Notes: generated by a model from the sequence alone, not told the origin. A DNA stretch of 64,000 nucleotides from Alphaproteobacteria bacterium (GCA_024407875.1 JAKSVT010000001.1:117091-181090), one strand, 5' to 3'. Shown: positions 593 to 61,796, counted from the first letter of the stretch. Program-made: numbers and translations.

Positions 593-614
593 TGTAAATC
601 AAAGGGTAAAGATT

Positions 615-3236: not shown

Positions 3237-3259
3237 TATTTTTATTAGGCTATAGAATT

Positions 3260-4540
3260 ATGCTTGCTCAGGAAATTATTAAGAAAAAAAGAGATGGTGA
3301 AAATTTAACCGCTAAAGAAATTAAAACTTTTGTTCAAGGTGTTTTAGATTGGTCTGTCTCTGATGGTCAGCTATCAGCTTTGTTGATGGCTTTCTTAATT
3401 AATGGAATGAGCCATGAAGAACTTCAAAACTGGATAAGTGAAATTATAGATTCAGGTATGGTTCTTGATTGGGATAGTGTTGATTTAAATGGGCCTGTGG
3501 CATCAATTCATACAATGCCTTCTGTTGGTGATAAATCAGAGATTATTGTTGGAGCTGTTTTAGCAAGTGCAGGAATGTATGTTCCTATGCTCTGTGATAA
3601 AATGCAATATCATACAGGAGGCACAATTGATAAATTAAGTTCTATTAGTGGTTATGATATTAATCCTTCAAAAGCAAGATTTCGTAAAACTTTACTAAAT
3701 TCAGGTTTTGCTTTTTTGACTTCATCAGAACAGTTAGCTCCTGCTGATGTTAGAATTCAATCTATTCGTGATACAACAGCAACAATTTCTAGTATTGATT
3801 TGTTAATAGCTTCATTATTAATTAAAAAAGTTGCTAGTGGTGTTAAAAAATTGACTGTAGATATTAAAACAGGTTCAGCAAGTTTTACAACAACAGAAGA
3901 ATATGCAAAAGAATTTGAAGAAAAATTATTATTAAATGCTGCTCCATTTGGACTTGATGTAAAAACTATTTTCTCGAATGTTAATGAAGTTGTCGGCCAA
4001 AATATTGGCAACTCCTTAGAAATTTATGAAGTCTGGGCTTTTTTAACAGGTGCTTTGGGCAATAGGGATAAACAATTGATGAAGCAGACAAAAACTATTG
4101 CTAGTGTTGCTTTAGTTCAAAATGGTATTTGTTCAAATGAAGAAAATGCAAAGCAACTAGTTGAAGATTTAATTACTTCAGGTAAAGCTGCAGAACAATT
4201 TTCTAGAATGCTTTATGAAATGGGAGTTTCTCAAGCGTTTATGTCAAATCCTATGACGTATTTGCCACAAGCGCCAGTTGTTTTACCTGTATATGCGGGA
4301 AAAACAGGTATAGTTGAAACTATGAATATGAGATGGATAGGTTTGTCTGTTATTGAAATGGGTGCTGGTCGTTTATATAGCGAACAAAAAATAGATTTGT
4401 CAGCAGGTTATTCTAATATGATTAAACCAGGAACTAAAGTAATGCCAGACACAGTACTAGCCTTTATTCATGCTCAAGATGAACAAACAGCTCTAGCAGC
4501 ACAAACTCATTTGCTGGGTGCTATAAATATTAACGGTTAA
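3260..4540 (+). CDS. thymidine phosphorylase paralog with diverged phosphate-binding loop
   Basis: It shares the TP fold and N-terminal helical domain with deoA (MLAQEIIKKKRDGENLTAKEIKTFVQGVLDWSVSDGQLSALLMAF). HSTGGVGDK is replaced by HTMPSVGDK and SGxGLxHTGGT by CDKMQYHTGGT. The likely start is ATG 3260. Confidence 0.7.
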   Translation: MLAQEIIKKKRDGENLTAKEIKTFVQGVLDWSVSDGQLSALLMAFLINGMSHEELQNWISEIIDSGMVLDWDSVDLNGPVASIHTMPSVGDKSEIIVGAVLASAGMYVPMLCDKMQYHTGGTIDKLSSISGYDINPSKARFRKTLLNSGFAFLTSSEQLAPADVRIQSIRDTTATISSIDLLIASLLIKKVASGVKKLTVDIKTGSASFTTTEEYAKEFEEKLLLNAAPFGLDVKTIFSNVNEVVGQNIGNSLEIYEVWAFLTGALGNRDKQLMKQTKTIASVALVQNGICSNEENAKQLVEDLITSGKAAEQFSRMLYEMGVSQAFMSNPMTYLPQAPVVLPVYAGKTGIVETMNMRWIGLSVIEMGAGRLYSEQKIDLSAGYSNMIKPGTKVMPDTVLAFIHAQDEQTALAAQTHLLGAINING

Positions 4541-34619: not shown

Positions 34620-35351
34620 GTGATAGAAAATTATACAATTGATGATTTTTTAGGGGGCAAAGTTAAACTTTATCAGCCTAGAGATGATGGATATAGAGCA
34701 ACAAGTGATTCTGTTTTACTTGCTGCTGCTGTTAATACAAATCCTAATCAATGTATTTTAGAAGTTGGAACGGGAAGTGGGGTTGTTTCTTGCTGTATTA
34801 ATGCAAGAGTTCCTGGTGTCAGAATTACAGCTGTAGAAATTCAAGAAAAAATGGCGGAATATGCCAGATATAATTTTGAAAAAAATAAAGTTAACGGTGA
34901 AGTCATTGTTAGTGATATAAGAAAAAATTTTGGTTATACAGGGGGATCTTTTGACTTTGTTTATTGTAATCCCCCATTCATGATTGAAGATCAAATTTGT
35001 CCTAATAACGTTAGAGATATTTCTAGAAGAGAAAGTGATTGCTCATTAAAAGAGTGGATAAAATATAGCGTTAAATATGTAAAAAATAACGGAATATTTG
35101 TTATGATAAACAAAGCTGATAGAATTACCCAAATAATTACAGCTTTGAAATCTGAAGATATGCCTTTAATAGGCGATATTAAAATTTTACCAATTTATAC
35201 TAAAGCTCAAGAGGGAGCGAAAAGAGTAATCGTTTTTGCAAGAAAAGGTTCTAAAACTCCGGATACAATTCTACCAGGTATTATATTAAACGATGAAAAT
35301 GGTAGGACAAAAAAAGCTGAAGAAATAATGAGAATGGGGCAAGCTTTATAA
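34620..35351 (+). CDS. class I SAM-dependent methyltransferase, TrmN6/YfiC-like
   Basis: EVGTGSGVVS SAM site and NPPF catalytic motif. GTG start. Confidence 0.6.
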   Translation: MIENYTIDDFLGGKVKLYQPRDDGYRATSDSVLLAAAVNTNPNQCILEVGTGSGVVSCCINARVPGVRITAVEIQEKMAEYARYNFEKNKVNGEVIVSDIRKNFGYTGGSFDFVYCNPPFMIEDQICPNNVRDISRRESDCSLKEWIKYSVKYVKNNGIFVMINKADRITQIITALKSEDMPLIGDIKILPIYTKAQEGAKRVIVFARKGSKTPDTILPGIILNDENGRTKKAEEIMRMGQAL

Positions 35352-36035
35352 GAAGTATGCCCAAGTCATTGTGTTCATTTTTTTGCAAGCTTTTATAACA
35401 TCGCCTTTTACAAAAGGGAATTTGTGGCAATTAGGATTGTCTTCGGCACATTCCCATGTAAATACTGAGATATCGCTTTTCCCATCAGAAGATTGAATGT
35501 TGATGGAAATTAAACCTGTAGAAGGGTCATCTCCCCAATCTGAATCTAAAAGTTGAGTACAAACTTGAGCAGGAATTTCACTTAAAGTTACATAGATTGG
35601 TTGTTCTGCTGAATCTTCATTTTCGTTTCCATCTTCGTCTTTTGCATATTCAGTAGGATCACAAGTAACCGTCATTTCTTTCCCAAACACATGATAAGCT
35701 TTATCTCCAACCACCATATTGTTATCATATACACGAGCTTTTTTTAATTGTTCTGGAGTTAAAATCCATTTTGGTGTTGTGTCTGCAGAAGCACCGATTT
35801 CAGCACATGTTATTCCAGCGTAAATTTGACGTAAACCTTTTATAATATAAATAATTTGTTCTCTTTGTTGAGAAACTTTCATTTTAGAACTTATGTTGTT
35901 AACACCTTTGATTATTCCTGAGGTTAACATTGCTAAAATAGCAAGAACGCCTAAAGCTTCTAGCATTGTAAAGCCACGTTGTGATGATGCTTTGTTTAAG
36001 ACATTCATTTTTCTTTCCCTGATATAATAATACAA
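35346..36035 (-). CDS. type IV pilin / pseudopilin-like protein
   Basis: Prepilin signal QRG|FTMLEALGVLAILAML with Glu at +5. The likely start is the internal Met (MNVLNK, ~36008). Confidence 0.6.
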   Translation of the reverse strand: MYYYIRERKMNVLNKASSQRGFTMLEALGVLAILAMLTSGIIKGVNNISSKMKVSQQREQIIYIIKGLRQIYAGITCAEIGASADTTPKWILTPEQLKKARVYDNNMVVGDKAYHVFGKEMTVTCDPTEYAKDEDGNENEDSAEQPIYVTLSEIPAQVCTQLLDSDWGDDPSTGLISINIQSSDGKSDISVFTWECAEDNPNCHKFPFVKGDVIKACKKMNTMTWAYFL

Positions 36036-36041
36036 ATGGTG

Positions 36042-36275
36042 TTAAACTAATATGTTAACGTAAGTTCCTCTTGGCGCATCTAGATAAAGTTTTTTTCCGT
36101 CAACTAAAACAAATCCTTCGTCAGATGTAAAAGGAACTTCAACGCGCCTTGAGTTTTGATATTGACTTTCTTGAGCTTGTGAGACTGTTGAGATTGGAGT
36201 ACGTCTTGACGAAACAGATACTAAGTCTGTTGATAAATTCATACCCGATGAAAATCTGTTTACGTTATTACTCAT
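36042..36275 (-). CDS. small hypothetical protein upstream of pilin gene
   Basis: 77-aa ORF, co-directional and 6 bp upstream of the pilin gene. No recognisable domain. Confidence 0.3.
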   Translation of the reverse strand: MSNNVNRFSSGMNLSTDLVSVSSRRTPISTVSQAQESQYQNSRRVEVPFTSDEGFVLVDGKKLYLDAPRGTYVNILV

Positions 36276-36374
36276 AAACTAAGAAGCCTAAATATTTAAA
36301 TCTACTCATTTATAATATATTAACCTAATTCTTATATAAAGGTAAAAGGAAAAATATTTTTTATTGGTGAAACT

Positions 36375-36992
36375 ATGTCTGAAATTGATTTAAATATTTC
36401 TAAAAATGCTATTACAAGATTAAGCCATGATTTGGCTGGTGTAATGGGGGCTGTAGCTAGCAGTTTATCTTTACTTGGAGAGCTTGGCGGTTGTGATGAA
36501 GAAACGCTTTCTTTAGCAAGTAATAATGCCGATATTTTGCTGGCAAGATTGAGGTTTTTTAGGGCTGCTTATGGTAATGATGGCCCATTAACAGACATTG
36601 GTGTATCACAGCAAATGCTTGAAGATTACTTAAAATCTATAGAGAATCGAGTTGCTTCGTTTAAGGTAATATGGGATTGTGATGCTGAGATTCCTTTATA
36701 TTTCTTTAGATTAATATTGCTAAGTGCTCAAATTGTATCCGAATCGATGATTAGAGGAGGAACTATTACAATTAAGGCAAAAGCTGGAGAAAAGAAATTA
36801 ATTGTTGTTGGTGAAGGACAGACAATTAAGACTGAAGAAGGCCTAGCACAAATATTGTCTGGAGATTTATCTAAGATGAATCCTAAATTGGCTAGTGCTG
36901 TATTTGTTCAAATTTTAACAAGTCAATCTGGCGTTAAATGTGAATTGGAAAAGACACAAACAAGTATAGCTTTGGAGTTTTCTGCAAGATAA
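36375..36992 (+). CDS. chpT: ChpT-like histidine phosphotransferase
   Basis: RLSHDLAGVMGAVASSLSLLGE and RLRFFRAAYGNDG align with Caulobacter ChpT (RLCHDFISPASAIVSGLDLLED; LLQFTRVAFGASA). Confidence 0.65.
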   Translation: MSEIDLNISKNAITRLSHDLAGVMGAVASSLSLLGELGGCDEETLSLASNNADILLARLRFFRAAYGNDGPLTDIGVSQQMLEDYLKSIENRVASFKVIWDCDAEIPLYFFRLILLSAQIVSESMIRGGTITIKAKAGEKKLIVVGEGQTIKTEEGLAQILSGDLSKMNPKLASAVFVQILTSQSGVKCELEKTQTSIALEFSAR

Positions 36993-39818
36993 TTGCTGAA
37001 AAATATTTTCATGAACGAATTAACAGAACCATTCTTGAGTGAAGTAAAATCTGAGTTCGATAAAATCGAGCCTTTCTTATCAATGATAAAAAAAGATCCT
37101 TCATTACCAGAATGTTGGGATGCTTTAAAAAAGTTTTTTGAAAGTATTAGAAGTGTAGCTTTGTTTGCTGAATTCCCTAGATGTCATGCTTTGTCAGTAA
37201 GTGCTATTGAAGAAATAGATGGCTATTTAGATAAAAAATTACCTTTAGATGTTTTACCTAGTGTTTTAATGAAATTTCAAAGAATTAGAAAAATTAGTTC
37301 TTCTGCAAATAATTTAAAACGTGAACCTAGAGAGTCTGATGAAGATTTATTATCAAAGAGTGCTAAGAGTGTAAAAACAAAGGCACCATCTTCTATTGAT
37401 GATAAAGTTTTAGAAGTTAAAAAGAAAGATGTTCTTGAACAAGAAAAAAAATTAGATGAAAGAGAAGAACAATTAGTTCAATGGGCGCAAAAACTTTATA
37501 ATCGTGAAAATGATTTACAACAAAGAGAAACATATCTATTTAAAAATGAACAAAGTAATGCAGATGTTCATAAAAAAATATTAGAAGAGCATTCAAAAAT
37601 AGAAATTGAACATGCTAAATTAGATGAGCGTCAATTAGCCATTGAAGAGTTAGAACGTCAAAACGAAGAAGTTAGACAGAATTTAGATGGTCAAAAAAGT
37701 GTTGTTGCTGATCTAAAGAAAACAATTCAAAATTTAAAAAATGAAAAAGAAGAATGGGATTTTAGATTAGGAAAAAAAGATAAAATAATTGCTGAATTAG
37801 AAGATGAATTAGCTGGTAGTAGATTAAGTGTGGATCGTATGAGCGAACAGCTTAAAGAAAGGGACCATCAGCAATTAGAAATTAGTAATTTATTAGAAAC
37901 TAAAAATAAATCAATTAGAGAAGTGACAGAATCTGTTTGTCAATTAGAAGAAAGATTGCTGAAAGTAAGTAATCAGGCTACTGTTACTGAAAATGAGTTG
38001 AGAGCTGAAGTTTCTGTTACTAAACAACAATTAAGACAAAAAGATGAAGAATTAGAAAGTTTGCGTTTTGAATTAAATAATCTTCATAGCAATATTGATA
38101 AAACATCTTCTGATGCTACAAGTCTTAAAAAAGATTATGATGATGTTTTAGATCAATATAATGTTTCAAAAATAAATTTAGAAAAGATTCAAGCTCAAAA
38201 CGCTGATTTAGAACAACGTTGTTCTGAAATGACAGGACAATTTAATGCTTTAAATGATGAAATTAAAGATAAAGCTATTCAATTAAAACAAGCTCAAGAT
38301 CAATTGAAAAAACAATCAGAGCATTATTTAAATGTCCAATCTGAATTAAGAGCTATTGGATGGCCATTAGATATAGAACATTTACAACAAAATTTAGGTA
38401 AAGTTTTAGCTTTTGATGAAGTTCAAGGCAATGGTGCAAAACTTCAATTGTGGAACTTTATCAGAAACATGAGACTTAAACCAGTAATGATTTTAAAGTC
38501 TTTTGTTCAAGGATTTGCTGCTACAAGAGCAAAAAAATATGAAAAAAATTATGCAGTCTCAGTATCATTCCAAGATATTAAGGTAGATAAAGATTGTTAT
38601 ACAACTCTTGAACATGTATTAGCTTCATTAATCGATAATTCTATAAAATATGCAAATTTTGAGGACAATCAAACTCCTGTATTAATTAAAATTTCAACTA
38701 CACAAGTTGGAACAGTTTTGAAGTTAATTTATCAGGATAATGTTAATAACTTTGCTTATGAAAAGATTAGAAGTAATGTTGTTGAAGTAGGACTGTTTTC
38801 TGTTGAAGATGCTCAAGAATTAAGTAATCAGCAATTATTGGATTATACATTCCATAATAGAGTTTTGGCAAATAGTGGAACTCGTGGTTTGTTGTCAGTT
38901 GCAGGAAGCTTAGAACAAATAGGAGGCACTGTAAAAATGACAGCGGATAATGGAATGAAAACTGTAGTTAATATTCCTATTAATGGCATTTATGATAAAG
39001 CTGTTTTGTTCGAAATATTGAGTGATACAATAGATACATCTAATAATATTTATTCTCTGCCAATGGGAGCTGTTATTGAAACGTTCTCATTAAAAGAAAA
39101 GGATTTTGAGGATTTAGGTTCTTTAATTTATCATACAAAAACTGCTGATTTGCCAGTAATATGTATGCCTGGCGTTGATTATACAAAAATGCAATATGGT
39201 ATTGTGTGTCAAGCAGGGGCATTTACATTCCTGTTGCCTGTTTCTAGAATTTTGGAACCTGAATATGTAGTTGTTAATTTGAATGAAAATATTGAAAATA
39301 GGCCATATTTAAAACAGGTTGTAACATTAGATAATAATAGGTTAACAGCAGGAATAGATATTCCAGTATTGTTAAAAATTTGTCCTATTGGTGTTTCTAC
39401 TAGTGAAGAAGATGTCGTTCATGAAGTTAAGGAAAATAAGATAGTTCCAACCCATAATCAAACAGATTCATATATGATATATAATGCAGATCCTCATAAT
39501 ATTGAAGCTGTATTAGTATCTAATGTTGTACGTATTGAAAGCTTTACTGGTGCAAGTATTGATGGAAATTCTGGTGCAAGTATTTATGTATCACAATCAA
39601 AGACATATCCATTAGTAGATTCTTGTAGAAAGAAAGATTTCCAATATGCTCAAACAGTTTTGCTTTTTGCAGATTTTGCATTAGCAGTTCAAGAAGTTAC
39701 AGATATCGTTGATGTAAATATTGAGAATGATCAACCAATCGACTTCTTGTTATACCAAGGTAGAAAAGTTCCTATTAGAACAGGTAAAGAACCTCCTAAA
39801 AGAGAAATAAAAAAATAA
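36993..39818 (+). CDS. CheA-architecture protein: Hpt-like N-terminus, ~300-aa coiled coil, degenerate HATPase_c and CheW-like C-terminal domain
   Basis: N-box-like HVLASLIDNSIKYA; G1 box DxGxG is replaced by YQDNVNN; G2/G3-like NSGTRGLLSVAGSLEQIGGTVKMTADNGMKTVVNIP; CheW-like YSLPMGAVIETFSL. Start is TTG 36993 or ATG 37011, 0-18 nt after the chpT stop. Confidence 0.55.
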   Translation: MLKNIFMNELTEPFLSEVKSEFDKIEPFLSMIKKDPSLPECWDALKKFFESIRSVALFAEFPRCHALSVSAIEEIDGYLDKKLPLDVLPSVLMKFQRIRKISSSANNLKREPRESDEDLLSKSAKSVKTKAPSSIDDKVLEVKKKDVLEQEKKLDEREEQLVQWAQKLYNRENDLQQRETYLFKNEQSNADVHKKILEEHSKIEIEHAKLDERQLAIEELERQNEEVRQNLDGQKSVVADLKKTIQNLKNEKEEWDFRLGKKDKIIAELEDELAGSRLSVDRMSEQLKERDHQQLEISNLLETKNKSIREVTESVCQLEERLLKVSNQATVTENELRAEVSVTKQQLRQKDEELESLRFELNNLHSNIDKTSSDATSLKKDYDDVLDQYNVSKINLEKIQAQNADLEQRCSEMTGQFNALNDEIKDKAIQLKQAQDQLKKQSEHYLNVQSELRAIGWPLDIEHLQQNLGKVLAFDEVQGNGAKLQLWNFIRNMRLKPVMILKSFVQGFAATRAKKYEKNYAVSVSFQDIKVDKDCYTTLEHVLASLIDNSIKYANFEDNQTPVLIKISTTQVGTVLKLIYQDNVNNFAYEKIRSNVVEVGLFSVEDAQELSNQQLLDYTFHNRVLANSGTRGLLSVAGSLEQIGGTVKMTADNGMKTVVNIPINGIYDKAVLFEILSDTIDTSNNIYSLPMGAVIETFSLKEKDFEDLGSLIYHTKTADLPVICMPGVDYTKMQYGIVCQAGAFTFLLPVSRILEPEYVVVNLNENIENRPYLKQVVTLDNNRLTAGIDIPVLLKICPIGVSTSEEDVVHEVKENKIVPTHNQTDSYMIYNADPHNIEAVLVSNVVRIESFTGASIDGNSGASIYVSQSKTYPLVDSCRKKDFQYAQTVLLFADFALAVQEVTDIVDVNIENDQPIDFLLYQGRKVPIRTGKEPPKREIKK

Positions 39819-39829
39819 AGGAGATTAAT

Positions 39830-40522
39830 ATGGTTGAAGAAATCAATAATATTGAAAAAATATATGAAGTCAAAAATTGGGTTTTTGACTTAGATGATAC
39901 ATTGTATCCCCCAAATAAAACATTAAATAATGAAATGGGCGAAAGAATTTCTAATTACATTATGAAAGTTGCTCATGTTGATAAAGAAAGAGCTGATTTT
40001 ATGAAAAAGGATTTTTATCAACGATATGGGGCTACTGTATGGGGGCTGATGAATGAGTATGAAGTTGATCCTGTAGATTTTACAGAAGACATTCATAAGT
40101 TAGATTTATCTGTTTTAAAAAAGGATCCTGAATTAAGAAAAGCAATAGAGTTATTACCAGGTAAAAAATATGTTTTTACAAATGGGGCTTATCAACATGC
40201 AACAGGAGTTATAAAACAAGTAGGATTAGAAGGATTATTTGAAGGAATATTTTCTATTAGAGAAGCGGAATATATTCCAAAGCCAGCACAAGAAACTTTT
40301 ATGAAAATGTTTGATTATTTTGATTTAATTGGCGAAGAGTGTTTAATGTTTGATGATAATCAAAAAAACATTCTTGGGGCAAAAAAGGCTGGAATGAAAA
40401 CTGTTTGGATTTCTTCAAATGTAGATAACAATAAATATTGTATGTCTGAAGAAGCTGATTTTTGCGATTTCCAAGCATTTAATTGTACGGAATTTATAAA
40501 TAAAATTAAGCATGTTCTTTAA
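39830..40522 (+). CDS. HAD-superfamily pyrimidine 5'-nucleotidase-like hydrolase
   Basis: DLDDTLY motif I, and motifs FTNG and MFDDN in 230 aa. Confidence 0.65.
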   Translation: MVEEINNIEKIYEVKNWVFDLDDTLYPPNKTLNNEMGERISNYIMKVAHVDKERADFMKKDFYQRYGATVWGLMNEYEVDPVDFTEDIHKLDLSVLKKDPELRKAIELLPGKKYVFTNGAYQHATGVIKQVGLEGLFEGIFSIREAEYIPKPAQETFMKMFDYFDLIGEECLMFDDNQKNILGAKKAGMKTVWISSNVDNNKYCMSEEADFCDFQAFNCTEFINKIKHVL

Positions 40523-44136: not shown

Positions 44137-47100
44137 ATGTCTAGTTTAAAAAAAGCTCTATTATTAACGACAGCGCTTACTGCGCTTAAGCCGTGTATTG
44201 TTTATGCAGATACAGTTTCTTCAGCTATTGATTTAACGTCAACTACAAGTATTTCTGAAAATAAATATTATGAAGGTAAATCATTTTCTATATATGATCC
44301 TGGTTCAAATCCTAATATAACTTTTACTGGAGGAAGTATATATCATATTACATCTGTTGTTGCTGAACCTGTTGAAGCTGGACGTTATAAAATATCAAAT
44401 GGTGTTTATAATGAGCCCAATATAGGAGAACATGTAAATGAAAAATATGATGGTTCAGCTCTATCTTTTAATCTGTTTGATGGAAATTCTACTGAAATAG
44501 GTAATTTGAATATTTCAGGAGGGGTTATTTCAGATTCTGATACAGGTGCTATAATTATAAAAAAAGGTAATCCTAATATAAATGTTATAATACCTTCACA
44601 TGGGACTGACCCAGAAATTGCAGAAAAGCAAGTTGCAATAGTGTCATCAGGTAATATTAATATTAATGGTGGTGTGTTTAATGTATTGCATAATTTCGGA
44701 GAAAGCTATATTGACTTTAGTCCTAGTTCAGTAAATGAATCTCAAGAGTTTAATCTTTCTGGCGGCACATATAATGTCGGAGTTAATGGAGGAACGGGAA
44801 ATTCTGTTTTAAATCTTGGAAGTATTGGTAATCCTTTAAATATTTCTAGTGGAACTTTTAATGTTTATGAAAATGGTAAAGTAGTATTTAAAGGAGGTGT
44901 GATAACATTCGAGAATAGTCCTTCAAGACCTAATATATTATTTAAAAATGAAGAAAATGCTGATGGAAACGGTAAAGGAGAAATCGTTTTTACAGGCGCG
45001 AATATTAATTTAAAATCAGCAATGACTTGGGAAAATGGAAATATAAGCATTGTGGGAACTGGAGAAAGAGAAATTGCTATTACAGCCCCATGGTCAGTAA
45101 GCAAATTTGATTATTCAGGTTTTTTAGATTTAAAAAGTACAGTTACCGTAAAACAAGATTTTGTAATGGATTCATCTTCGACTTTGAGAGGAACTGGTAC
45201 TATTGTTTTGCTAGAAGGTGCTAATGCGACATTCCAAACAATTACAGATTATAAAGGTTCTATTATTGTAGATAAAAAGAATAGTGGGGCTGCTGGAACT
45301 TTAACATTTGCTGGTGCGGCTAATGTTGACAATATTGTTTTAAATGAATCTACTATGAACGTAAATTCAAGTATTAGTGTTAATACATTAAATATTAATG
45401 GTAGTATTTTAAATATTAAAGATGACTTAACAGTATCTTCCTTAAATTTAACTTCAGGGCAAATTAATTTTACTCAAGATAAAACTATAACATTTAATTC
45501 TACTGCTAATATAGTAAATACAGCAACATTTACAGGTAAAGGTACTTTACAATCTCAAGCTCCAAAAGAAGGCCAAGATAAAGATTTCGTTAATGTAAAT
45601 TTTGTTGACGCTGATGTACCTGGGGAAACAGGATTTAATGGCTATGATGCAGGTACTGGTTTAGCTATTTCAGTTAAATCAAATAAAAATTCTGAAGTAA
45701 ATTTTGAAATGAGTAATACATCAACATTTAATGTAATGTTTACTGAAGAAGGAACGACGAATTTTATAAAAGGAACTTATGAATTTCAAAATATTAAAAC
45801 AGGTTCTTCAGAAACAAGTGGTATAAGTAGTTTTAATGTTCTAGATGAAGCAAAAGTTTATACTCAACAATTGCAAGCAATTTATGGCTCAAAAATTAAT
45901 ATTGATGGTTTCTTTGATGTAAAAACAGCAGATATAACATATAATGATACTATAATTTCAGGTAAAGGTACATTAAGCGTATCAGGACCTTTTAGATATA
46001 CAGGTAAATTTGATAATTTAAATAATATAACTCTTGATGCATCTAGTGGTAATGTTACATTTGATTATGATTCTAATGCAAGTGAAAGTAGGGTAAATAA
46101 ATTAACGTTTATTGCTGATAGTACTCATTCAGGTACATTTAATATTGGTCAAAATGCTGGTGGTAATAAGGCAAGATTTGAAGTTAAAGAATTAGATTTT
46201 TCACAAGTTGAATCTGGAAGTGGTTCTAAAGTTGAATTGTTCGGTAATGGTATTCTAGCATTAAATAATCCTGGTAATGATGTGTCTGGCAATATAGGTA
46301 AGGTTGTTGGTACAGGTACGTTAGAACTTGTTGGTTCAACAAATATTAGTTTGACAGGAAGCGACTTAGATGACAATCAAAAAACTTTAAGATTGCAAAT
46401 TGGTACAGGAACGGCAACTGTTTCTGGAAATACAGAGTTAGCAGGAGTTCAATTTACTGATGAACAAGGTGGAACTTTATCTATTACTCCTGAAGGTGCA
46501 AATTTAACTTTGAATGATTTACAATCTAATAAAGGAAATACTGTTACAGGCAAAGGTAAATTGAGTTTAACATCAACTACAGCCCCTTCTGTTTTAAAAG
46601 GTAAAACATATGTTAATGAAATAGATATAACTAATTCTGATTTAACATTAGGTGAAGAATCAAAAGTTAATACTATATCAAGTAAATCTTTAACAGTTGA
46701 TCAAAACGGAAAAGCTGAATTAGGAACTGTTAGAGCAACTACTGAAGTAAAGTTGTTAGAAAATAGTGTTTCTATCATTGATAATTTAAATACGCCTAAA
46801 TTTACTCAAAATGAAAATTCAGTTTCAACAATTAAAGAAGCTAATACAATTTCAGATGCAATTGTGAATGGTGTTATGAATTTGTATAAAGGGGTAATAA
46901 CAAAATTATCTGGTACAAAAGGTACACTAAATGTAAAAAGTGATACAACGGGTGTTGAAATTACAACAAATTCACAAATTAATACATTAAATGTTGAACA
47001 AGATGGAAAATTAAAAATTGGGACTTCCGTAACTTTTGAAGTTAATAATGTTAATTTAGTTGGTACGGTTGAGGATGGTACATTAAAAGTCGTTGAAAAA

Positions 47101-50100
47101 GGTGTTTTTGGCGATGCGACAATTAATAGTTTAAATAAATTAGAAGCAAATAACGCTAGAGTTGATTTTAATGGCACAAATACCATAAAAGATTTTAGCC
47201 ACAGTAATTCAGATTTGAATGTAAATGGTACCTTAACAATTTCAAATTCTTATGCTGATGATACTGATAATAATTATTCTGATATTACAGGAAGTGGAAC
47301 TCTTATTTTAAACGCAGAATCAACAATTAATTCCAGAATTATAGATTTAAATAACTTGGTTGCTAATGCAGATGTTACATTAGCTAATGATGCTAAAATA
47401 ACTAATGTAACTACAAGAGGAGATGCTGTATTTAAATATAATGACTATATTGAAAATTTAACTGCAGAAGGAAACTTAACTTTAGAAGATGTAAATATTA
47501 TTGGACATTTAACAACAGTTTCGGGTAAAAATGCAACTTTTAATAAGAATAATATAATAGATTACGCAGATATAGCGGGAACTTTAACTCTAGCTTCTGA
47601 TGCTGTTTTGTCAATTAATAATAACTTAGTTTTAAGTGGAAGTATTACTAATGGTATAATCAGTTTAAATGGCTCAGCAAATGCAACATTAAATGGTAGC
47701 GTAAGTAATTTAGTATTAGGTTCAGGAACTGTTTATGTTAAAGATGACATTACAATCGATAACTTAACTACAACATTAAATCCAGGTGGTGTATTAGAAG
47801 TTGATGAAGGAAAAACAGCAACTATTAGAAATCAAATTACAGGAACAGGCTCATTAACTGTTAATAATGCAGGGGCTATTGAATCTGGTGTTAATATTGG
47901 TGGAAGCCTAGATGTTAATGGTGGAACTTTAAAAGTTACTGGCGGATCAAGTGTTACAAACAAAATTGGATATGATTTTGTAATGAATGGCTCATTAACA
48001 AGTGATAATACAGATGATAATTTAGAAATTGGACATGAAGCTTTCTTCAATACAGGTATAAATGCTTATAGTGGTATTATTAAAACAGCTAATGGTACTT
48101 TGAACTTTAACCAAAACGTTGAGAATGTAAATTTAATTAGTGCAAAAACAGGAACAATTAATTTTAATAATGATTTAGCTAATAGTAATGTTAAGTTAGA
48201 AGATGCCGGTGTTGTTAATTTTAAGAAGAATGCAAATATAAAAACCTTAGATACAGCAAAGAATTCAACAGTAAACTTTACAAATGGTGCTGATATAGTA
48301 GATTGGACAAGTGATGGTCGTACAAATATGGATTATCAAGAACTTAGAATTTCTAATTCAGCAACAATGAAATCTAACAGTGTTTTAGCAGTTTCTATTG
48401 ATCCAATGAATCAAAGATATGGCCATGTTAAATTAGGTTCAGCAGCAATGACTATTGAGGATGGTGCTTCTATTGATTGGTCTGCATCATATGGTATGAA
48501 TAATCAAGAAATGACTGTAAACTTGGTTGAAGGTAGTAATATTACAGGTGATTTTGCATTTACTAATGATAATAAACGCTACTCATTAACTAAAGTTGAT
48601 TGTACAGAAGGACGTTGCTATAACTTTAAGACAATAGCAACAGCTTCAGATGTTGTAAGTCAAAGTGGTACATCTAATGGTAATGATAAAAATAACGAAA
48701 AAGTTGCTGCGGCAATATTAGACGGTAAAATTTTTGAACAAGATGATCCTTTCTATGATGTTGTTGTTGCATTAGATAAATTATCTCAAAAGGGTGGAAA
48801 AGAATATGCTGATGCTTTAACAGCTGTTGCTCCTGATATTTCTGGTCAAGTAACCCAACAAGCTGTAGCTTTACAAGCTAAGATAGGTTCAGTTGTTCAA
48901 AATCGTATGATGAACATTGGCAAAGGCTTGGGTAAATCTGTAAATGTAGGAAGATCTACATTTAATGGCGCTAAATATTATGGCCAAAGTGGCGGACAAG
49001 GTTGGTCAAGCAAATATATGCGTTCACAAGATTACTATCGTAAGAATAGTTATGGTTCAAATAAGTTAGACCGCAAGTATAGTAACGATAATTATCATTA
49101 TGATAGATCAAAATATCAATACAGAAATAATGCATCAAATTCGTATAACAATTCCGGATATTTCAGTAATAAAAAATATGATACAAAGTCATATAAATCT
49201 TACAAAGATTATAAGCAAGAACAAGAATATAATAGAGTAAGACAAATTCAAGAAGCTGAAAGAAATTCATATTTTGATGATCCTATAGATCGTAAATATA
49301 GCAGACCTCAACAAAAGCGTTATGCTGATCAAAGAGATGATAGAGAAATTAATTATGCTCAAAATGAAGTAAAACCAGTAGAACAAATTCCTTATGGTAT
49401 GCATGAACCTGTATCTGTAAATGTAGGTTTGTGGGCAGAAGGTTTATATAATAATACAAAATATAAGAAAAAAACTGATTTCGATGGATTTGAATTTGAT
49501 AGTACAGGCGTATCAATGGGTATTGATGCCGTATTCAATGATAATTTAGCATTCGGTTTAGGTTATGCTTCAACATCTGGTGATTTAAAGACTTTAGGTA
49601 AAAAGACAGATGTAGATGGTGATACATATTTCTTATATACAATGCTTAAACCTTCAAATTGGTATGTTTCTTTAGTTGGATCTACAACAGATAATAAATA
49701 TAAAGAAACAAAGACGGTTGCAGGATATAAGATTAAGGCTGATTATGATGCTAAATCTTATGGCGGACAAGTTATGTTTGGATATGATGGTAATGTTGTA
49801 AAACCTTCTGTAGGTGCAAGATTTACCAAAGTTAAAGTTGATGCATATAAAGATAGCGTAGGTCAAAAAGTAGATTCTTCATCAAATTCCGTATCTACGG
49901 CTTTAGCTAGAGTTGATTTTGAAAATGTATTATCAAGAAATTCTGATAGTATGTGGTTGTTAGATACAGGTGTCGGTGCTGAATATGACTTTAAGCGAAA
50001 TGGTGAAAAGACAAGTGTTTCATTATCAAATGGATCTAACTATGAAGTTGAAGGCAAAAAGTTAGAAAAATTTGGAGCTAATGGATCTGTAGGTATTCGC

Positions 50101-50205
50101 TACCAAGCAGCTAAAGGAGTTGTTGTTTCAGCTGAATATAACTTAGATTGGCGTAAAGATTATACATCTCATAATGTCACAGCAAACATTCGTTGGAATT
50201 TCTAA
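44137..50205 (+). CDS. autotransporter (type Va) with ~1600-aa beta-helical passenger, Tyr/Lys/Asn-rich linker and C-terminal beta-barrel
   Basis: Signal peptide MSSLKKALLLTTALTALKPCIVYA, many degenerate G/N/T-rich passenger repeats, and a C-terminal barrel ending ...NIRWNF. Confidence 0.8.
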   Translation: MSSLKKALLLTTALTALKPCIVYADTVSSAIDLTSTTSISENKYYEGKSFSIYDPGSNPNITFTGGSIYHITSVVAEPVEAGRYKISNGVYNEPNIGEHVNEKYDGSALSFNLFDGNSTEIGNLNISGGVISDSDTGAIIIKKGNPNINVIIPSHGTDPEIAEKQVAIVSSGNININGGVFNVLHNFGESYIDFSPSSVNESQEFNLSGGTYNVGVNGGTGNSVLNLGSIGNPLNISSGTFNVYENGKVVFKGGVITFENSPSRPNILFKNEENADGNGKGEIVFTGANINLKSAMTWENGNISIVGTGEREIAITAPWSVSKFDYSGFLDLKSTVTVKQDFVMDSSSTLRGTGTIVLLEGANATFQTITDYKGSIIVDKKNSGAAGTLTFAGAANVDNIVLNESTMNVNSSISVNTLNINGSILNIKDDLTVSSLNLTSGQINFTQDKTITFNSTANIVNTATFTGKGTLQSQAPKEGQDKDFVNVNFVDADVPGETGFNGYDAGTGLAISVKSNKNSEVNFEMSNTSTFNVMFTEEGTTNFIKGTYEFQNIKTGSSETSGISSFNVLDEAKVYTQQLQAIYGSKINIDGFFDVKTADITYNDTIISGKGTLSVSGPFRYTGKFDNLNNITLDASSGNVTFDYDSNASESRVNKLTFIADSTHSGTFNIGQNAGGNKARFEVKELDFSQVESGSGSKVELFGNGILALNNPGNDVSGNIGKVVGTGTLELVGSTNISLTGSDLDDNQKTLRLQIGTGTATVSGNTELAGVQFTDEQGGTLSITPEGANLTLNDLQSNKGNTVTGKGKLSLTSTTAPSVLKGKTYVNEIDITNSDLTLGEESKVNTISSKSLTVDQNGKAELGTVRATTEVKLLENSVSIIDNLNTPKFTQNENSVSTIKEANTISDAIVNGVMNLYKGVITKLSGTKGTLNVKSDTTGVEITTNSQINTLNVEQDGKLKIGTSVTFEVNNVNLVGTVEDGTLKVVEKGVFGDATINSLNKLEANNARVDFNGTNTIKDFSHSNSDLNVNGTLTISNSYADDTDNNYSDITGSGTLILNAESTINSRIIDLNNLVANADVTLANDAKITNVTTRGDAVFKYNDYIENLTAEGNLTLEDVNIIGHLTTVSGKNATFNKNNIIDYADIAGTLTLASDAVLSINNNLVLSGSITNGIISLNGSANATLNGSVSNLVLGSGTVYVKDDITIDNLTTTLNPGGVLEVDEGKTATIRNQITGTGSLTVNNAGAIESGVNIGGSLDVNGGTLKVTGGSSVTNKIGYDFVMNGSLTSDNTDDNLEIGHEAFFNTGINAYSGIIKTANGTLNFNQNVENVNLISAKTGTINFNNDLANSNVKLEDAGVVNFKKNANIKTLDTAKNSTVNFTNGADIVDWTSDGRTNMDYQELRISNSATMKSNSVLAVSIDPMNQRYGHVKLGSAAMTIEDGASIDWSASYGMNNQEMTVNLVEGSNITGDFAFTNDNKRYSLTKVDCTEGRCYNFKTIATASDVVSQSGTSNGNDKNNEKVAAAILDGKIFEQDDPFYDVVVALDKLSQKGGKEYADALTAVAPDISGQVTQQAVALQAKIGSVVQNRMMNIGKGLGKSVNVGRSTFNGAKYYGQSGGQGWSSKYMRSQDYYRKNSYGSNKLDRKYSNDNYHYDRSKYQYRNNASNSYNNSGYFSNKKYDTKSYKSYKDYKQEQEYNRVRQIQEAERNSYFDDPIDRKYSRPQQKRYADQRDDREINYAQNEVKPVEQIPYGMHEPVSVNVGLWAEGLYNNTKYKKKTDFDGFEFDSTGVSMGIDAVFNDNLAFGLGYASTSGDLKTLGKKTDVDGDTYFLYTMLKPSNWYVSLVGSTTDNKYKETKTVAGYKIKADYDAKSYGGQVMFGYDGNVVKPSVGARFTKVKVDAYKDSVGQKVDSSSNSVSTALARVDFENVLSRNSDSMWLLDTGVGAEYDFKRNGEKTSVSLSNGSNYEVEGKKLEKFGANGSVGIRYQAAKGVVVSAEYNLDWRKDYTSHNVTANIRWNF

Positions 50206-61082: not shown

Positions 61083-61796
61083 ATGACTAAAATAATGATT
61101 GTTGAAGATGAAGCAGATATTTGTACATTATTACAATATAATTTGTTTAATGCAGGGTTCGAAGTTATGTTCGAACAAAATGGCGGAAAAGCTATAGATA
61201 CAATTCGTAAATTCCAACCAGATTTATTATTATTGGATAGAATGCTTCCTGAAAAAGATGGGATTACAATTTGTGCAGAGATTCGTGCAGATGATGATTT
61301 GCGTAATTTGCCAATTATTATGCTTACAGCTTTAAGTTCAGAAAAGGATAAAGTAGAAGGTTTAGCTACGGGTGCCGATGATTATGTAACAAAACCATTT
61401 TCTGTTCCAGAGCTAATTGCAAGAATTCGTGCTATGCTCCGTAGAATGCAACCTGTACAAAATGAAGATGATGTAGAAATTTACCAGTTTGAAGATGTAT
61501 CTGTTGATATGGTGAAACGTAGGGTAATGCGTGGTAAGCGCTATATTCATTTAGGCCCGACAGAATTCAAATTATTGGTAATTTTAATTAAACAACCAAG
61601 AGTTGTTTTCTCAAGAGAAGCTTTGTTAAAAGAAGTTTGGGGAAATGATATTCATGTTGAATTAAGAACTGTTGATGTTCACATTCGTCGTTTACGTAAA
61701 GCAATGAATGAAGGTGGAGAAAGTGATGTAATTAGAACAGTTCGTTCAGGTGGATATTCAATTGATAATAATATTCCTGAAGAAGAATTAGAATAG
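61083..61796 (+). CDS. phoB: OmpR/PhoB-family response regulator (PhoB-like)
   Basis: It is collinear with E. coli PhoB, including GADDYVTKPFS, GPTEFKLL and RTVDVHIRRLRKA. Confidence 0.7.
   Translation: MTKIMIVEDEADICTLLQYNLFNAGFEVMFEQNGGKAIDTIRKFQPDLLLLDRMLPEKDGITICAEIRADDDLRNLPIIMLTALSSEKDKVEGLATGADDYVTKPFSVPELIARIRAMLRRMQPVQNEDDVEIYQFEDVSVDMVKRRVMRGKRYIHLGPTEFKLLVILIKQPRVVFSREALLKEVWGNDIHVELRTVDVHIRRLRKAMNEGGESDVIRTVRSGGYSIDNNIPEEELE

What the first reader, a model, noticed from the sequence alone, without database searches (positions are those of the whole stretch)
36375..39818. ChpT-like phosphotransferase translationally coupled to a CheA-architecture pseudokinase with a giant coiled coil
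The 205-aa protein matches ChpT, the CckA-to-CtrA/CpdR phosphotransferase of alphaproteobacteria. Its stop is 0-18 nt from the start of a 941-aa protein. That protein has an Hpt-like N-terminus, ~300 residues of continuous heptad-like coiled coil in place of CheA P2/P3, a kinase core whose G1 box (DxGxG) reads DNVNN and whose G2 box has lost its glycines, and a CheW-like C-terminal domain. There is no cheW, cheY, cheB/R or MCP gene in 64 kb. Divergently upstream sits an orphan pilin operon. Pairing a cell-cycle phosphotransferase with a likely ATP-binding-deficient CheA scaffold is not an arrangement I recognise. It could be a polar scaffold or phosphorelay branch.
Basis: partly seen in the sequence, partly recalled or inferred. 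Interest (0 to 1): 0.72.

Follow-up and report, generated by a model that had tools for sequence, protein, structure and literature searches.

The report
Dead CheA scaffold paired with ChpT
A group of gut and rumen Alphaproteobacteria keeps, right after the gene for the phosphate-carrier ChpT, a remnant of the chemotaxis kinase CheA that has lost its phosphorylation site, receiver domain and most ATP-binding motifs, has gained a 310-residue coiled coil, and is still under purifying selection, so it probably now works as a non-enzymatic scaffold.

Summary
Window 36375-36992 encodes a ChpT-type histidine phosphotransferase with its histidine intact. Eighteen nucleotides later, 37011-39818 encodes a 935-aa CheA derivative. 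It has a P1/Hpt four-helix bundle with Glu in place of the phospho-His. About 310 residues of coiled coil replace P2/P3. The P4 fold keeps the N-box Asn and G1 Asp, but G1 reads DNVNN and the F and G2 boxes are gone. P5 and a second CheW-like domain follow, and there is no receiver domain. No che, MCP or flagellar gene lies in the 64 kb.

About 13 clusters of this protein exist among 1.84 billion representatives. All loci with a named source are gut or rumen alphaproteobacterial MAGs, and all sit in the same module: pilin-like and small gene, divergent from chpT and pseudo-cheA. dN/dS is about 0.12.

The pairing itself is not exotic. In 47 of 61 informative metagenomic chpT loci a genuine cheA follows chpT, and two fully read operons also carry cheY-cheB-cheR, one with cheW and ctrA beside it. 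The closest real CheAs are those hybrids. This is therefore a decayed, repurposed CheA. Its most likely role, inferred only, is a ChpT-associated scaffold or regulator. It is a new variant of a known kind and is unannotated in public records.

The parts
35346..36008 (-). Pilin or pseudopilin-like gene of 220 aa. NCBI MCQ2913706.1, named 'type II secretion system GspH family protein'.
   Evidence: Pfam N_methyl E=2e-5. NCBIfam prepilin-type N-terminal models match weakly. The G|FTMLE leader, Glu+5 and two Cys are conserved across loci. The gene is present in 10 of 11 related genome loci, by blastp in 9 plus inspection of L008, and in L013, L014, L020-L022. Name.
36042..36275 (-). Small 77-aa protein of unknown function with a conserved C-terminus, FVxxDGKxYxLxAPRGTYVNILV.
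   Evidence: It is present next to chpT in 11 of 11 related genome loci and in L013, L020-L022. It belongs to a wider family of 184 hypothetical proteins of about 75 aa. No Pfam family matches.
36309..36343 (.). DNA motif in the divergent promoter region, conserved across loci (consensus GGTAAAGATTGTTTAACTTAATTAGTATACAAAAAA). It contains a CtrA-box-like (T/G)(T/A)AA-N7-TTAAC followed by TATA(C/A)A.
   Evidence: Alignment of 12 loci shows an invariant TTAA core followed by a nearly invariant C, although the flanking proteins are only 21-55% identical. The CtrA-box reading is only a resemblance. The full consensus is not enriched in the window.
36375..36992 (+). ChpT-type histidine phosphotransferase of 205 aa, with His18 intact.
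   Evidence: PF10090 E=4e-15. PDB 4qpj E=3e-10. The family alignment keeps His18 and RLRFFRAAFG. 30% identity to the canonical ChpT of L015 that lies beside cheA and ctrA.
37011..37310 (+). P1*: a CheA P1/Hpt-type four-helix bundle (residues 1-100) without the phospho-accepting His. Glu44 sits at that position and Arg47 replaces the Lys.
   Evidence: Profile against PDB finds CheA P1 2ld6 and 1tqg. hhalign against CheA P1 gives 97.3%, E=2e-11, and the His column is variable in the family. AF2 predicts four helices at residues 5-102.
37314..37349 (+). Conserved acidic linear motif L-K-R-E-P-R-E-S-D-E-D-L (residues 102-113), at the start of a predicted disordered linker (residues 108-132).
   Evidence: Nearly invariant in the family alignments. 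pLDDT is below 50 for residues 108-132. A similar EPxGxDxDL segment follows P1 in related genuine CheAs.
37401..38354 (+). Coiled coil (residues 131-448) that replaces CheA P2 and most of P3. It forms two helices of about 150 residues with a break at 286-301.
   Evidence: No Pro and 4 Gly in residues 136-445, with heptad periodicity z=2.2-5.9. Weak hits to SMC, Rad50 and crescentin coiled-coil models. AF2 predicts helices 131-285 and 302-448. Its length varies between family members.
38355..38975 (+). P3 remnant and linker plus P4*: a CheA-type GHKL domain (residues 449-655). The N-box Asn543 and G1 Asp576 are kept. G1 reads DNVNN, the F-box PG/S is lost, and G2 is reduced to RG.
   Evidence: phmmer against CheA 1b3q E=2e-5. 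Foldseek finds CheA P3-P4-P5 at E=2.8e-18 and P4 at rmsd about 2.6 A. The residue-by-residue table against 21 genuine CheAs is, and the motif scan.
38976..39425 (+). P5: the CheW-like regulatory domain (residues 656-805).
   Evidence: Foldseek alignments cover CheA P5. Pfam CheW E=0.002, below its cutoff. phmmer alignments to 1b3q run into P5.
39462..39785 (+). W2: a second CheW-like domain (residues 818-925), equivalent to the 'Class 5' domain of CheAs with two CheW-like domains. No receiver domain follows it.
   Evidence: The W2 profile scores best on the C-terminal CheW-like region of hybrid CheAs P0049, P0025, L012 CheA and P0117. Those CheAs show two CheW stretches, with or without REC. 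Pfam CheW matches weakly in 4 of 12 members. The AF2 model is beta-rich with pLDDT above 90. The class definition comes from 10.1101/2022.05.07.491035.

Best explanation
Shown:
- The two genes are a conserved operon of a clade of low-GC gut and rumen Alphaproteobacteria.
- The first gene encodes a ChpT-type phosphotransferase that looks functional.
- The second is a descendant of the alphaproteobacterial hybrid CheA (Hpt-P3-P4-P5-CheW2-REC, the architecture of A. brasilense CheA1, R. centenum CheA1 and A. caulinodans CheA).
- In many free-living relatives that CheA lies directly downstream of chpT. In the two operons read in full it heads cheA-(cheW)-cheY-cheB-cheR.
- In the loci read from this clade the other che genes are absent. 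The CheA lost its phospho-His, its receiver domain, the F and G2 boxes and several catalytic residues. P2/P3 were replaced by a coiled coil of about 310 residues.
- Every domain is still under purifying selection.

Inferred:
- The protein can neither autophosphorylate nor relay phosphate.
- It most likely works as a dimeric or oligomeric, non-catalytic scaffold or allosteric partner of ChpT.
- Its coiled coil and its P5/W2 lattice-forming domains would set where or when ChpT passes phosphate to CtrA-type regulators.
- This would be analogous to the pseudokinase DivL and to the coiled-coil polar scaffolds of Caulobacter.
- The shared promoter with the pilin-like and small genes suggests co-regulation with a pilus or pseudopilus function.
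For: Anatomy:
- ChpT.
- P1 homology without the His.
- Coiled coil.
- CheA P3-P4-P5 fold.
- Loss of H405, R408, H413, the second G1 Gly, the F-box PG/S and G2, against 21 genuine CheAs. None of the full-length family members P0001-P0013 has the G2 motif or the Hpt His, whereas the genuine CheA hits carry G1 and nearly all carry G2.
- W2 domain and absence of REC.

Family and selection:
- 13 clusters among 1.84 billion representatives.
- The same four-gene module occurs in 10 of 11 genome loci. The eleventh, L009, lacks only the pilin-like gene.
- The same module is found when searching from ChpT.
- dN/dS is 0.11-0.14 overall, and 0.06-0.23 for each structured domain (P1*, coiled coil, P4*, P5, W2) wherever dS was not saturated. 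The short linker gives 0.23-0.41.

Origin:
- A genuine cheA follows chpT in L012 and L015, and ctrA (76% identical to Caulobacter CtrA) sits next door in L015.
- The same adjacency holds in 47 of 61 informative metagenomic loci.
- The family's P1* and W2 profiles score best on exactly these hybrid CheAs. P0117, the L015 CheA, is the top P1 hit.

Context:
- No che, MCP or flagellar genes in the 64 kb or in the flanks of related loci.
Against: - No experiment or interaction prediction links the two proteins. Adjacency and conservation are the only evidence for a physical or functional ChpT partnership.
- The N-box Asn543 and G1 Asp576 are invariant, and most members keep the first G1 Gly. Nucleotide binding is therefore not excluded.
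- One sublineage (L013, L014, P0006) lacks P1* altogether, so P1* cannot be essential to the core function.
- I could not check whether these genomes encode CckA, CtrA, MCPs or CheW elsewhere.
- Polar localisation is pure analogy.
Confidence: 0.5

Rival explanations
1. Split kinase. P4* still binds ATP and phosphorylates the His of ChpT in trans. ChpT has replaced the His-less P1 as the substrate domain, giving a CckA-independent input into ChpT. This would resemble R. sphaeroides CheA4 phosphorylating CheA3 in trans.
For: The N-box Asn and G1 Asp are invariant, and the first G1 Gly is kept in 10 of 13 members. ChpT keeps His18. P1* lost its His and one sublineage dropped P1* altogether. The two genes are always adjacent. 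The CheA3/CheA4 precedent is from my own knowledge.
Against: The whole G2 box (SGRGVG), the F-box PG/S, H405, H413 and R408 are lost or charge-reversed, and an ATP-lid residue is deleted in all members. In the window protein G1 has no glycine at all (DNVNN). From general knowledge, G1 and G2 glycine substitutions abolish CheA autophosphorylation. The ChpT His lies on a DHp-like bundle, which is not the P1 geometry that P4 recognises.
Confidence: 0.13
2. An ordinary chemotaxis or type IV pilus chemosensory component. The protein still assembles with MCPs and CheW encoded elsewhere and modulates a genuine CheA or ChpA, as a non-catalytic array subunit controlling the neighbouring pilin.
For: P5 and W2, the array-coupling domains, are the best conserved parts. 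A pilin-like gene is conserved divergently upstream. Pil-Chp ChpA-type kinases of about 1800 aa appear among the CheA hits. His-less Hpt domains are known in ChpA (PMC10542144).
Against: No MCP, CheW, CheY or pilus machinery gene in 64 kb of the window or in about 16 kb around each of 11 related loci. The closest genuine relatives are flagellar-type hybrid CheAs, not ChpA-specific ones. Whole genomes could not be searched.
Confidence: 0.17
3. An evolutionary leftover with no specific function, or a generic coiled-coil cytoskeletal protein unrelated to ChpT, kept next to chpT only by inertia.
For: Catalytic motifs are gone. The precomputed Pfam table shows no family hit for the product, and NCBI names it 'hypothetical protein'. 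The coiled-coil length varies between members.
Against: Intact ORFs of 670-950 aa persist in more than 15 genomes that have diverged to 21-37% identity. dN/dS is about 0.12, and P1*, P4*, P5 and W2 are each constrained. A gap of 3-22 nt to chpT is maintained while all other flanking genes differ.
Confidence: 0.08

Closest known systems
[quoted passage not shown]
   Same: The domain order is the same: P1, P4, P5, then a second 'Class 5' CheW-like domain. The P1 start (MxDLLxEFL...LExNPxD) and the acidic segment after P1 match. The CheA-specific ATP-lid helix and LFxP motif are present. The family profiles score best on this class, and those CheAs also lie directly downstream of chpT.
   Different: It has no phospho-His, no receiver domain and no recognisable P2. 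Most of P3 is replaced by a coiled coil of about 310 residues. The F and G2 boxes and several catalytic residues are lost. No cheW, cheY, cheB or cheR gene follows it.
ChpT of the CckA-ChpT-CtrA/CpdR phosphorelay (Caulobacter, Brucella)
   Same: It matches PF10090, keeps the conserved His in an HD-type motif and the RLxFFRxAFG helix, and has a length of about 205 aa. It matches the solved ChpT structures significantly.
   Different: It is only about 30% identical to canonical ChpT, and it falls far below the NCBIfam equivalog cutoffs (46.6 bits against 240). The presence of its partners CckA and CtrA in this genome was not verifiable.
DivL, the histidine-kinase-derived pseudokinase that controls CckA in Caulobacter
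   Same: It offers the same concept: a kinase-fold protein in the CtrA pathway that has lost phosphorylation chemistry and is kept as a regulator or scaffold (PMC4211667 and PMC5361649 appear; I did not read them, and the rest is from my own knowledge).
   Different: DivL derives from a classical HisKA/HATPase kinase with PAS domains, not from CheA. There is no sequence relationship beyond the GHKL fold.
Split CheA3/CheA4 of Rhodobacter sphaeroides
   Same: CheA functions are distributed over two polypeptides, so a kinase core without a usable P1 works with a separate His-carrying partner (own knowledge).
   Different: CheA4 has intact N, G1, F and G2 boxes, and CheA3 carries a genuine P1 His. 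Here the kinase core is degenerate and the His-carrying partner is ChpT.
His-less Hpt domains of Pseudomonas ChpA
   Same: These are CheA-family Hpt domains that lack the conserved His and are not phosphorylated, and their function is unknown (PMC10542144).
   Different: In ChpA they coexist with functional Hpt domains and an active kinase. Here the only Hpt-like domain is dead.

Membership tests
CheA histidine kinase | N-terminal P1 (Hpt) four-helix bundle | tested here: met
   hhalign against a CheA P1 alignment gives 97.3%, E=2e-11. PDB CheA P1 hits. Four helices in the AF2 model. Pfam Hpt itself gives no hit.
CheA histidine kinase | Phospho-accepting His in P1 (HxxKG) | tested here: not met
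   The column aligned to the His is Glu44 in the window and is variable in the family. It is His in 1 of 17 members. No H[ST]xKG motif in the full-length family members P0001-P0013.
CheA histidine kinase | P3 dimerisation domain (H-kinase_dim) | tested here: inconclusive
   No Pfam H-kinase_dim hit. The phmmer and Foldseek alignments to 1b3q and 6s1k begin within P3. The long coiled coil occupies the position of P2/P3.
CheA histidine kinase | P4 GHKL ATP-binding fold with the CheA-specific lid | tested here: met
   Foldseek finds CheA P4 with TM (target) about 0.8 and rmsd about 2.6 A. phmmer E=2e-5. Pfam HATPase_c scores 22-25.7 bits, just below the 26.4 cutoff.
CheA histidine kinase | N-box Asn (Mg2+-ATP ligand) | tested here: met
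   Asn543 is invariant in the family and aligns with the CheA Asn in A3. The neighbouring H405, R408 and H413 equivalents are lost.
CheA histidine kinase | G1 box DxGxG | tested here: not met
   The window reads DNVNN. The family reads DNGxx, and the second Gly is lost in 11 of 13 members. Asp576 is kept.
CheA histidine kinase | F box and G2 box (GxGxG) | tested here: not met
   F-x-P-G-F-S-T is reduced to LF(H)Px, and SGRGVG is reduced to xxxxRG. No family member has the G2 motif.
CheA histidine kinase | C-terminal P5 (CheW-like) domain | tested here: met
   Foldseek alignments span P5. Pfam CheW E=0.002, below its cutoff. A second CheW-like domain is also present.
CheA histidine kinase | Encoded with or acting with CheW, CheY and MCPs | tested here: not met
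   None in the 64-kb window or in the flanks of 11 related loci. The genome-wide absence could not be tested with these tools.
ChpT (HPTransfase, PF10090) | Pfam HPTransfase domain above the gathering score | tested here: met
   56 bits against 22.9, E=4e-15. PDB ChpT hits.
ChpT (HPTransfase, PF10090) | Conserved phospho-accepting His on the DHp-like helix | tested here: met
   His18 in RLSHDLAG aligns with the His of Brucella and Caulobacter ChpT. It is nearly invariant in 18 relatives, and the one apparent exception was a truncated gene call.
ChpT (HPTransfase, PF10090) | Equivalog-level similarity to characterised ChpT (NCBIfam NF046018, NF046025) | tested here: not met
   46.6 and 42.8 bits against cutoffs of 240 and 225. 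This is a divergent subfamily.
ChpT (HPTransfase, PF10090) | Works between the CckA receiver and CtrA/CpdR | not testable with these tools
   No CckA or CtrA in the window. The only OmpR-type regulator, 61083-61796, is 30% identical to CtrA. In L015 a canonical ChpT lies near ctrA.
Type IV pilin / T2SS pseudopilin | Prepilin N-terminal cleavage/methylation motif with Gly-1 and Glu+5, followed by a hydrophobic helix | tested here: met
   PF07963 E=2e-5. QRG|FTMLEALGVLAILAML is conserved across loci.
Type IV pilin / T2SS pseudopilin | Assembly machinery (prepilin peptidase, ATPase, platform, secretin) nearby | tested here: not met
   None in the 64 kb. Genome-wide presence was not testable.

The most novel reading that the evidence does not exclude
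The chpT-cheA pairing may reflect a real, undescribed signalling connection. In many Alphaproteobacteria ChpT would be the phosphotransfer partner of the receiver domain of the hybrid CheA with two CheW-like domains, so chemosensory arrays would feed the CtrA regulon. The gut-clade protein would then be a fossil of that link. It would have been converted into a DivL-like pseudokinase scaffold that still docks ChpT through retained CheA surfaces and organises it on a coiled-coil lattice.
Probability: 0.2. Interest if true: 0.8.

Novelty: new variant of a known kind. Interest (0 to 1): 0.58.

Why it matters
- It would be a clear case of a CheA turned into a pseudokinase, a route so far best known for classical histidine kinases such as DivL. 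Current annotation misses the family. The precomputed Pfam table shows no hit, NCBI calls it 'hypothetical protein', and the CheA architecture survey I searched by keyword (PMC10542144) has no mention of coiled-coil or degenerate CheAs.
- The comparison that explains it shows that chpT sits directly upstream of a hybrid cheA in most environmental alphaproteobacterial loci sampled. I did not find this regularity discussed in the papers searched. It makes testable the idea that chemosensory hybrid kinases talk to the ChpT-CtrA pathway.
- It also gives a handle on the 'Class 5' CheW-like domain, whose function is unknown. That domain is retained under strong constraint here even after kinase function was lost.
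- For the biology of uncultured gut and rumen Alphaproteobacteria, it marks a conserved regulatory module linked to a pilin-like gene.

Tried and rejected
- The word-indexed protein search with the C-terminal half found nothing. The exhaustive HMMER search was needed.
- My first reading of the phmmer alignment suggested that the N-box Asn was replaced by Ser. The family and CheA alignments show a 4-residue shift, and the Asn is kept.
I rebuilt them from full database proteins.
- The W2 profile against PDB sequences gave no hit. Pfam CheW on W2 is weak.
- The afdb50 fold library was unavailable.
- I asked whether the small protein is DUF3553, which sits upstream of chpT/cheA in L012 and L016. 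Reading the translated DUF3553 sequences by eye showed no resemblance, and Pfam gave no DUF3553 hit for the small protein.
- Distant small-protein homologues lie by gap-pgk or ftsY, which gives no functional clue.
- The full CtrA-box consensus is not enriched in the window (2 found, 3.07 expected).
- Promoter and terminator scans were no better than shuffles.
- Literature searches for a ChpT-CheA link, CheA pseudokinases or RF32 biology found nothing specific.
- Five contexts of hybrid CheAs chosen by similarity gave chpT upstream in only two, counting L012, which was reached from its ChpT. The ChpT-centred metagenome scan was more informative.
- One script call produced no output.
- Hairpin or extended rod geometry of the coiled coil could not be decided, because model coordinates are not exposed.

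Full report
**1. What is in the sequence**

The window is about 30% G+C and otherwise full of housekeeping genes. It belongs to the NCBI MAG GCA_024500545.1, 'Alphaproteobacteria bacterium', on a contig of 205,615 bp.

ORF 36375-36992 (+, 205 aa) matches Pfam HPTransfase PF10090 (E=4e-15, 56 bits against a cutoff of 22.9). It also matches the solved ChpT structures of Brucella (4qpj, E=3e-10) and Caulobacter (4fmt, E=7e-4). The phospho-accepting His (His18, RLSHDLAG) and the RLRFFRAAYG helix are conserved in 18 relatives. The one apparent exception was a truncated gene call. Scores against the NCBIfam ChpT equivalogs are far below their cutoffs (46.6 against 240), so this is a divergent ChpT subfamily.

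The chpT stop codon ends at 36992. The next ORF can start at TTG 36993, but the family alignment fixes the start at ATG 37011 (MNELTEPFL aligns with MPDLxxEFL). The gap is therefore 18 nt, and it is 3-22 nt in related loci. This is a tight operon. Translational coupling is possible but not shown.

**2. Anatomy of the 935-aa protein (37011-39818)**

- *P1\*, residues 1-100.* A profile of 17 family N-termini finds T. maritima CheA P1 (2ld6 E=0.005, 1tqg E=0.022), designed bundles whose sequences closely resemble T. maritima P1, and E. coli and Salmonella P1. hhalign against an alignment of 17 genuine CheA P1 domains gives 97.3% probability, E=2e-11. The column aligned to the phospho-His is Glu44 here. 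In the family it is variable (E, S, C, K, D, A, N, G, Q, R, and His in one of 17). The Lys of HxxKG is an invariant Arg47, and the H64/E67 equivalents are lost.
- *Acidic motif, residues 102-113.* A nearly invariant motif, LKREPRESDEDL, sits at the start of a predicted disordered linker (residues 108-132).
- *Coiled coil, residues 131-448.* Residues 136-445 contain no Pro and only 4 Gly. They are rich in E, L, K and Q, and the 3.5-residue hydrophobic periodicity has z=2.2-5.9, against about 0 elsewhere in the protein. AF2 predicts two helices, 131-285 and 302-448. Coiled-coil models (SMC, Rad50, crescentin) match weakly.
- *P3 remnant, P4\*, P5 and W2, residues 449-935.* phmmer against PDB finds CheA 1b3q and 3ja6 (E=2e-5). 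An AF2 model built on 12 family members and 21 genuine CheAs has pLDDT 85.9 and pTM 0.70. Its best Foldseek matches in the PDB are CheA P3-P4-P5 (6s1k_A E=2.8e-18, 3ja6_C, 1b3q, 8c5v, about 380 aligned columns). The P4 crystal structures superpose at rmsd about 2.6 A.
- *W2, the last 110 or so residues.* This is a second CheW-like domain. The genuine CheAs that align to the very end of the query carry two CheW stretches, often followed by a receiver. A W2 profile scores best on that region of such CheAs. Pfam CheW is weak on 4 of 12 members. No receiver domain follows W2.

**3. Is it a dead kinase?**

I compared the family with the residues conserved in at least 85% of 21 genuine CheAs.

| Kept | Lost or changed |
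|---|---|
| the 'ELD' Asp | H405 equivalent (variable) |
| the N-box Asn (Asn543, 13/13) | R408 to D/E; D412 to K/R |
| the G1 Asp (Asp576, 13/13) | H413 to Y; G414 to A |
| the first G1 Gly in 10/13 (Val in the window) | an Arg deleted and a Lys lost after the N box |
| the first F-box Phe | the second G1 Gly in 11/13 |
| the last G2 Gly | the F-box PG and Ser |
| structural Gly and Pro residues | four of the five SGRGV positions of G2 |

A motif scan shows D[DN]GxG in the genuine CheA hits, G[RK]GxG[ML] in nearly all of them, and the Hpt His in most full-length ones. None of the full-length family members P0001-P0013 has the G2 motif or the Hpt His, and only the two deepest-branching members keep DNGxG.

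With no phospho-His and no receiver, canonical CheA chemistry is impossible. Residual nucleotide binding cannot be excluded, because the Asn and Asp are invariant.

**4. Family, distribution and selection**

An exhaustive HMMER search of 1.84 billion cluster representatives found 13 members with E below 1e-10, most of them full-length (837-945 aa). After a gap in scores, ordinary CheAs follow at E of 1e-8 and weaker.

A scan of one genome per species found 11 loci. All are gut, faecal or rumen 'Alphaproteobacteria bacterium' MAGs (horse, sheep, water buffalo, human), including Acetobacter sp. CAG:977.

All 11 loci carry the small gene (-), divergent from chpT-like (+) and pseudo-cheA (+). Ten also carry the pilin-like gene (-); L009 lacks it. 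Almost nothing else in the ±8 kb flanks is shared with the window. Searching from ChpT instead recovers the same module (P0176, P0177, P0179).

Members are 21-72% identical. For the three closest pairs dN/dS is 0.11-0.14 overall. P1*, coiled coil, P4*, P5 and W2 each give 0.06-0.23 wherever dS was not saturated, and the short linker gives 0.23-0.41. This is not a decaying pseudogene.

One sublineage (L013, L014, P0006) has a 672-aa version without P1*.

Public records call the protein 'hypothetical protein' (MCQ2913709.1). The precomputed Pfam table shows no hit for its relatives.

**5. Where it came from**

The only distant ChpT relative found by the word search (P0180) lies in L012 directly upstream of a genuine cheA. 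That CheA has HTIKG, DDGRG and GRGVGM intact, P5 plus a second CheW-like domain plus REC, and is followed by cheY, cheB and cheR.

The CheA P0117 lies on a 3.59-Mb chromosome (L015) in the order chpT-cheA(REC)-cheW-cheY-cheB-cheR. Next come a response regulator 76% identical to Caulobacter CtrA, then fliI and fliJ. Its ChpT is canonical in sequence and 30% identical to the window protein.

A metagenome scan with a ChpT alignment returned 80 loci.

| Category | Loci |
|---|---|
| Too little downstream DNA to judge | 19 |
| Genuine cheA starting about 80-520 nt downstream on the same strand | 47 |
| At least 1 kb of downstream DNA and no cheA | 14 |

In several of the 47 loci cheW follows the cheA, and in at least 17 the alignment runs through the receiver. 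Four of the 14 loci without cheA have ctrA nearby (67-73% identical to Caulobacter CtrA, counted by hand from its table). The sample is biased towards relatives of the L015 ChpT, but the adjacency is clearly common.

Among 128 genuine CheAs, the family's P1* profile scores best on P0117, the L015 CheA. P0049, P0037 (a ChpA-length CheA of about 1800 aa), P0072 and P0032 follow. The W2 profile scores best on P0049, P0025, the L012 CheA and P0042, with P0117 sixth. Most of the top hits are hybrid CheAs with two CheW-like domains.

That architecture is known as 'CheA.V' (A. caulinodans CheA, A. brasilense CheA1, R. centenum CheA1). Its second, 'Class 5' CheW-like domain has no known function (10.1101/2022.05.07.491035).

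The simplest history is this. The ancestor had chpT-cheA(hybrid)-cheW-cheY-cheB-cheR. The gut clade lost the che genes and kept a CheA that lost the His, REC and G boxes and gained a coiled coil.

**6. How it most likely works (inference)**

A protein that keeps a dimerising or oligomerising coiled coil and two lattice-forming CheW-like domains, but cannot carry phosphate, is best read as a scaffold or allosteric partner. It also keeps the P4 fold, and in most lineages a His-less P1.

Its invariant gene partner is ChpT, so the most likely client is ChpT. The protein would control the location or availability of ChpT for CckA-to-CtrA-type transfer. I give this about 0.5, and the anatomy and origin about 0.85.

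Rivals:
- A split kinase in which P4* phosphorylates ChpT in trans (0.13). The invariant Asn and Asp speak for it; the missing G2 and F boxes and the DNVNN G1 speak against it.
- A non-catalytic subunit of chemosensory or pilus arrays encoded elsewhere (0.17).
- A functionless leftover (0.08), contradicted by the selection data.

**7. The divergent genes and promoter**

The pilin-like protein has a prepilin leader (QRG|FTMLE) and two conserved Cys. NCBI names it a GspH-family pseudopilin.

The 77-aa protein has an invariant APRG and a TYxNI(L/I)V tail. It belongs to a wider family of about 75-aa hypothetical proteins (184 hits). In environmental contigs these lie beside gap-pgk or ftsY, not beside chpT.

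The intergenic region carries a motif of about 30 bp conserved in all 12 loci. It has an invariant TTAA core followed by a nearly invariant C, and an upstream (T/G)(T/A)AA at N7 spacing, one mismatch from the CtrA box TTAA-N7-TTAAC. A TATA(C/A)A element follows. The CtrA-box reading is a resemblance only.

**8. Comparison with what is known, and novelty**

The protein works like, and descends from, CheA, but it fails the defining chemical features: the His, G1, F and G2. It should not be filed as a CheA kinase. It is a CheA-derived pseudokinase.

The nearest concept is DivL, a classical histidine-kinase-derived pseudokinase in the same pathway. A His-less Hpt domain has a precedent in ChpA (PMC10542144). 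A CheA split over two polypeptides has a precedent in R. sphaeroides CheA3/CheA4 (own knowledge).

I found no description of this family or of the chpT-cheA adjacency in the literature searched. Verdict: new variant of a known kind.

**9. Limits**

- Whole genomes could not be searched, so CckA, CtrA, MCP, CheW and pilus machinery remain unknown for this clade.
- No interaction prediction was possible.
- The geometry of the coiled coil (hairpin or rod) is unresolved.
- dS is near saturation in the dN/dS pairs.
- The assignment of these MAGs to the GTDB order RF32 is my recollection and was not tested.

Noticed in passing
window 36309-36343 (and the equivalent intergenic regions of L001-L011): A noncoding motif of about 30 bp (GGTAAAGATTGTTTAACTTAATTAGTATACAAAAAA) is conserved in all 12 loci, although the flanking proteins are only 21-55% identical. 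It resembles a CtrA box with one mismatch plus a -10-like TATA(C/A)A. It may be the shared regulatory site of the divergent operons.
   Followed up: partly
L012, L015 and L027-L103 (metagenome loci): chpT is directly followed by a genuine, often hybrid (REC-bearing) cheA in 47 of 61 informative environmental loci. ctrA lies next to chpT or to the che operon in several others (L015, L057, L058, L060, L061, L105). I did not find this regularity discussed in the papers searched.
   Followed up: partly
window 36042-36275 (-); L023-L025: The 77-aa protein belongs to a family of at least 184 uncharacterised proteins of about 75 aa, with an N-terminal MADQGS and a ...GRREVP...APRGTYLNILV C-terminus. 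In environmental Alphaproteobacteria the gene sits beside gap-pgk or ftsY-miaB-dapF. No Pfam family covers it.
   Followed up: partly
L013 and L014, 9938-12569: One sublineage has a 672-aa pseudo-CheA that starts inside the coiled coil, so it has no P1* and no acidic motif. Its chpT gene call was truncated (the true GTG start is at 9938 and restores the His).
   Followed up: yes
window 44137-50205 (+): A 2022-aa protein with a C-terminal autotransporter beta-domain. A partial relative (29% identity over 266 aa) lies downstream of the module in L001.
   Followed up: no
window 576-1940 and 3224-4540 (+): Two paralogous thymidine or pyrimidine-nucleoside phosphorylase genes flank phosphopentomutase (deoB). 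In L013 and L014 a phosphorylase/deoC/PNP/cytidine-deaminase cluster also lies within 10 kb of the module.
   Followed up: no
window 39830-40522 (+): A HAD-family hydrolase gene starts 12 nt after the pseudo-cheA stop and may be co-transcribed here. It does not follow the module in the other loci. In L013 a HAD gene lies about 5 kb away on the opposite strand.
   Followed up: partly
L013, L014, L020-L022: Several relatives share a wider synteny: AsmA - LpoB-like lipoprotein - [pilin-like, small gene, chpT, pseudo-cheA] - Lnb_N/DUF784x protein - DUF3015. This is absent from the window.
   Followed up: no
window 61083-61796 (+): This is the only response regulator in the window. It is OmpR-type (REC plus Trans_reg_C) and 30% identical to Caulobacter CtrA, so it is not a CtrA orthologue.
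   Followed up: partly
L003 8001-8330: One family member (L003) has His at the position aligned to the CheA phospho-His (FFHFIR). It lacks the Lys-Gly and H64/E67 context, so this is probably a chance reversion.
   Followed up: no
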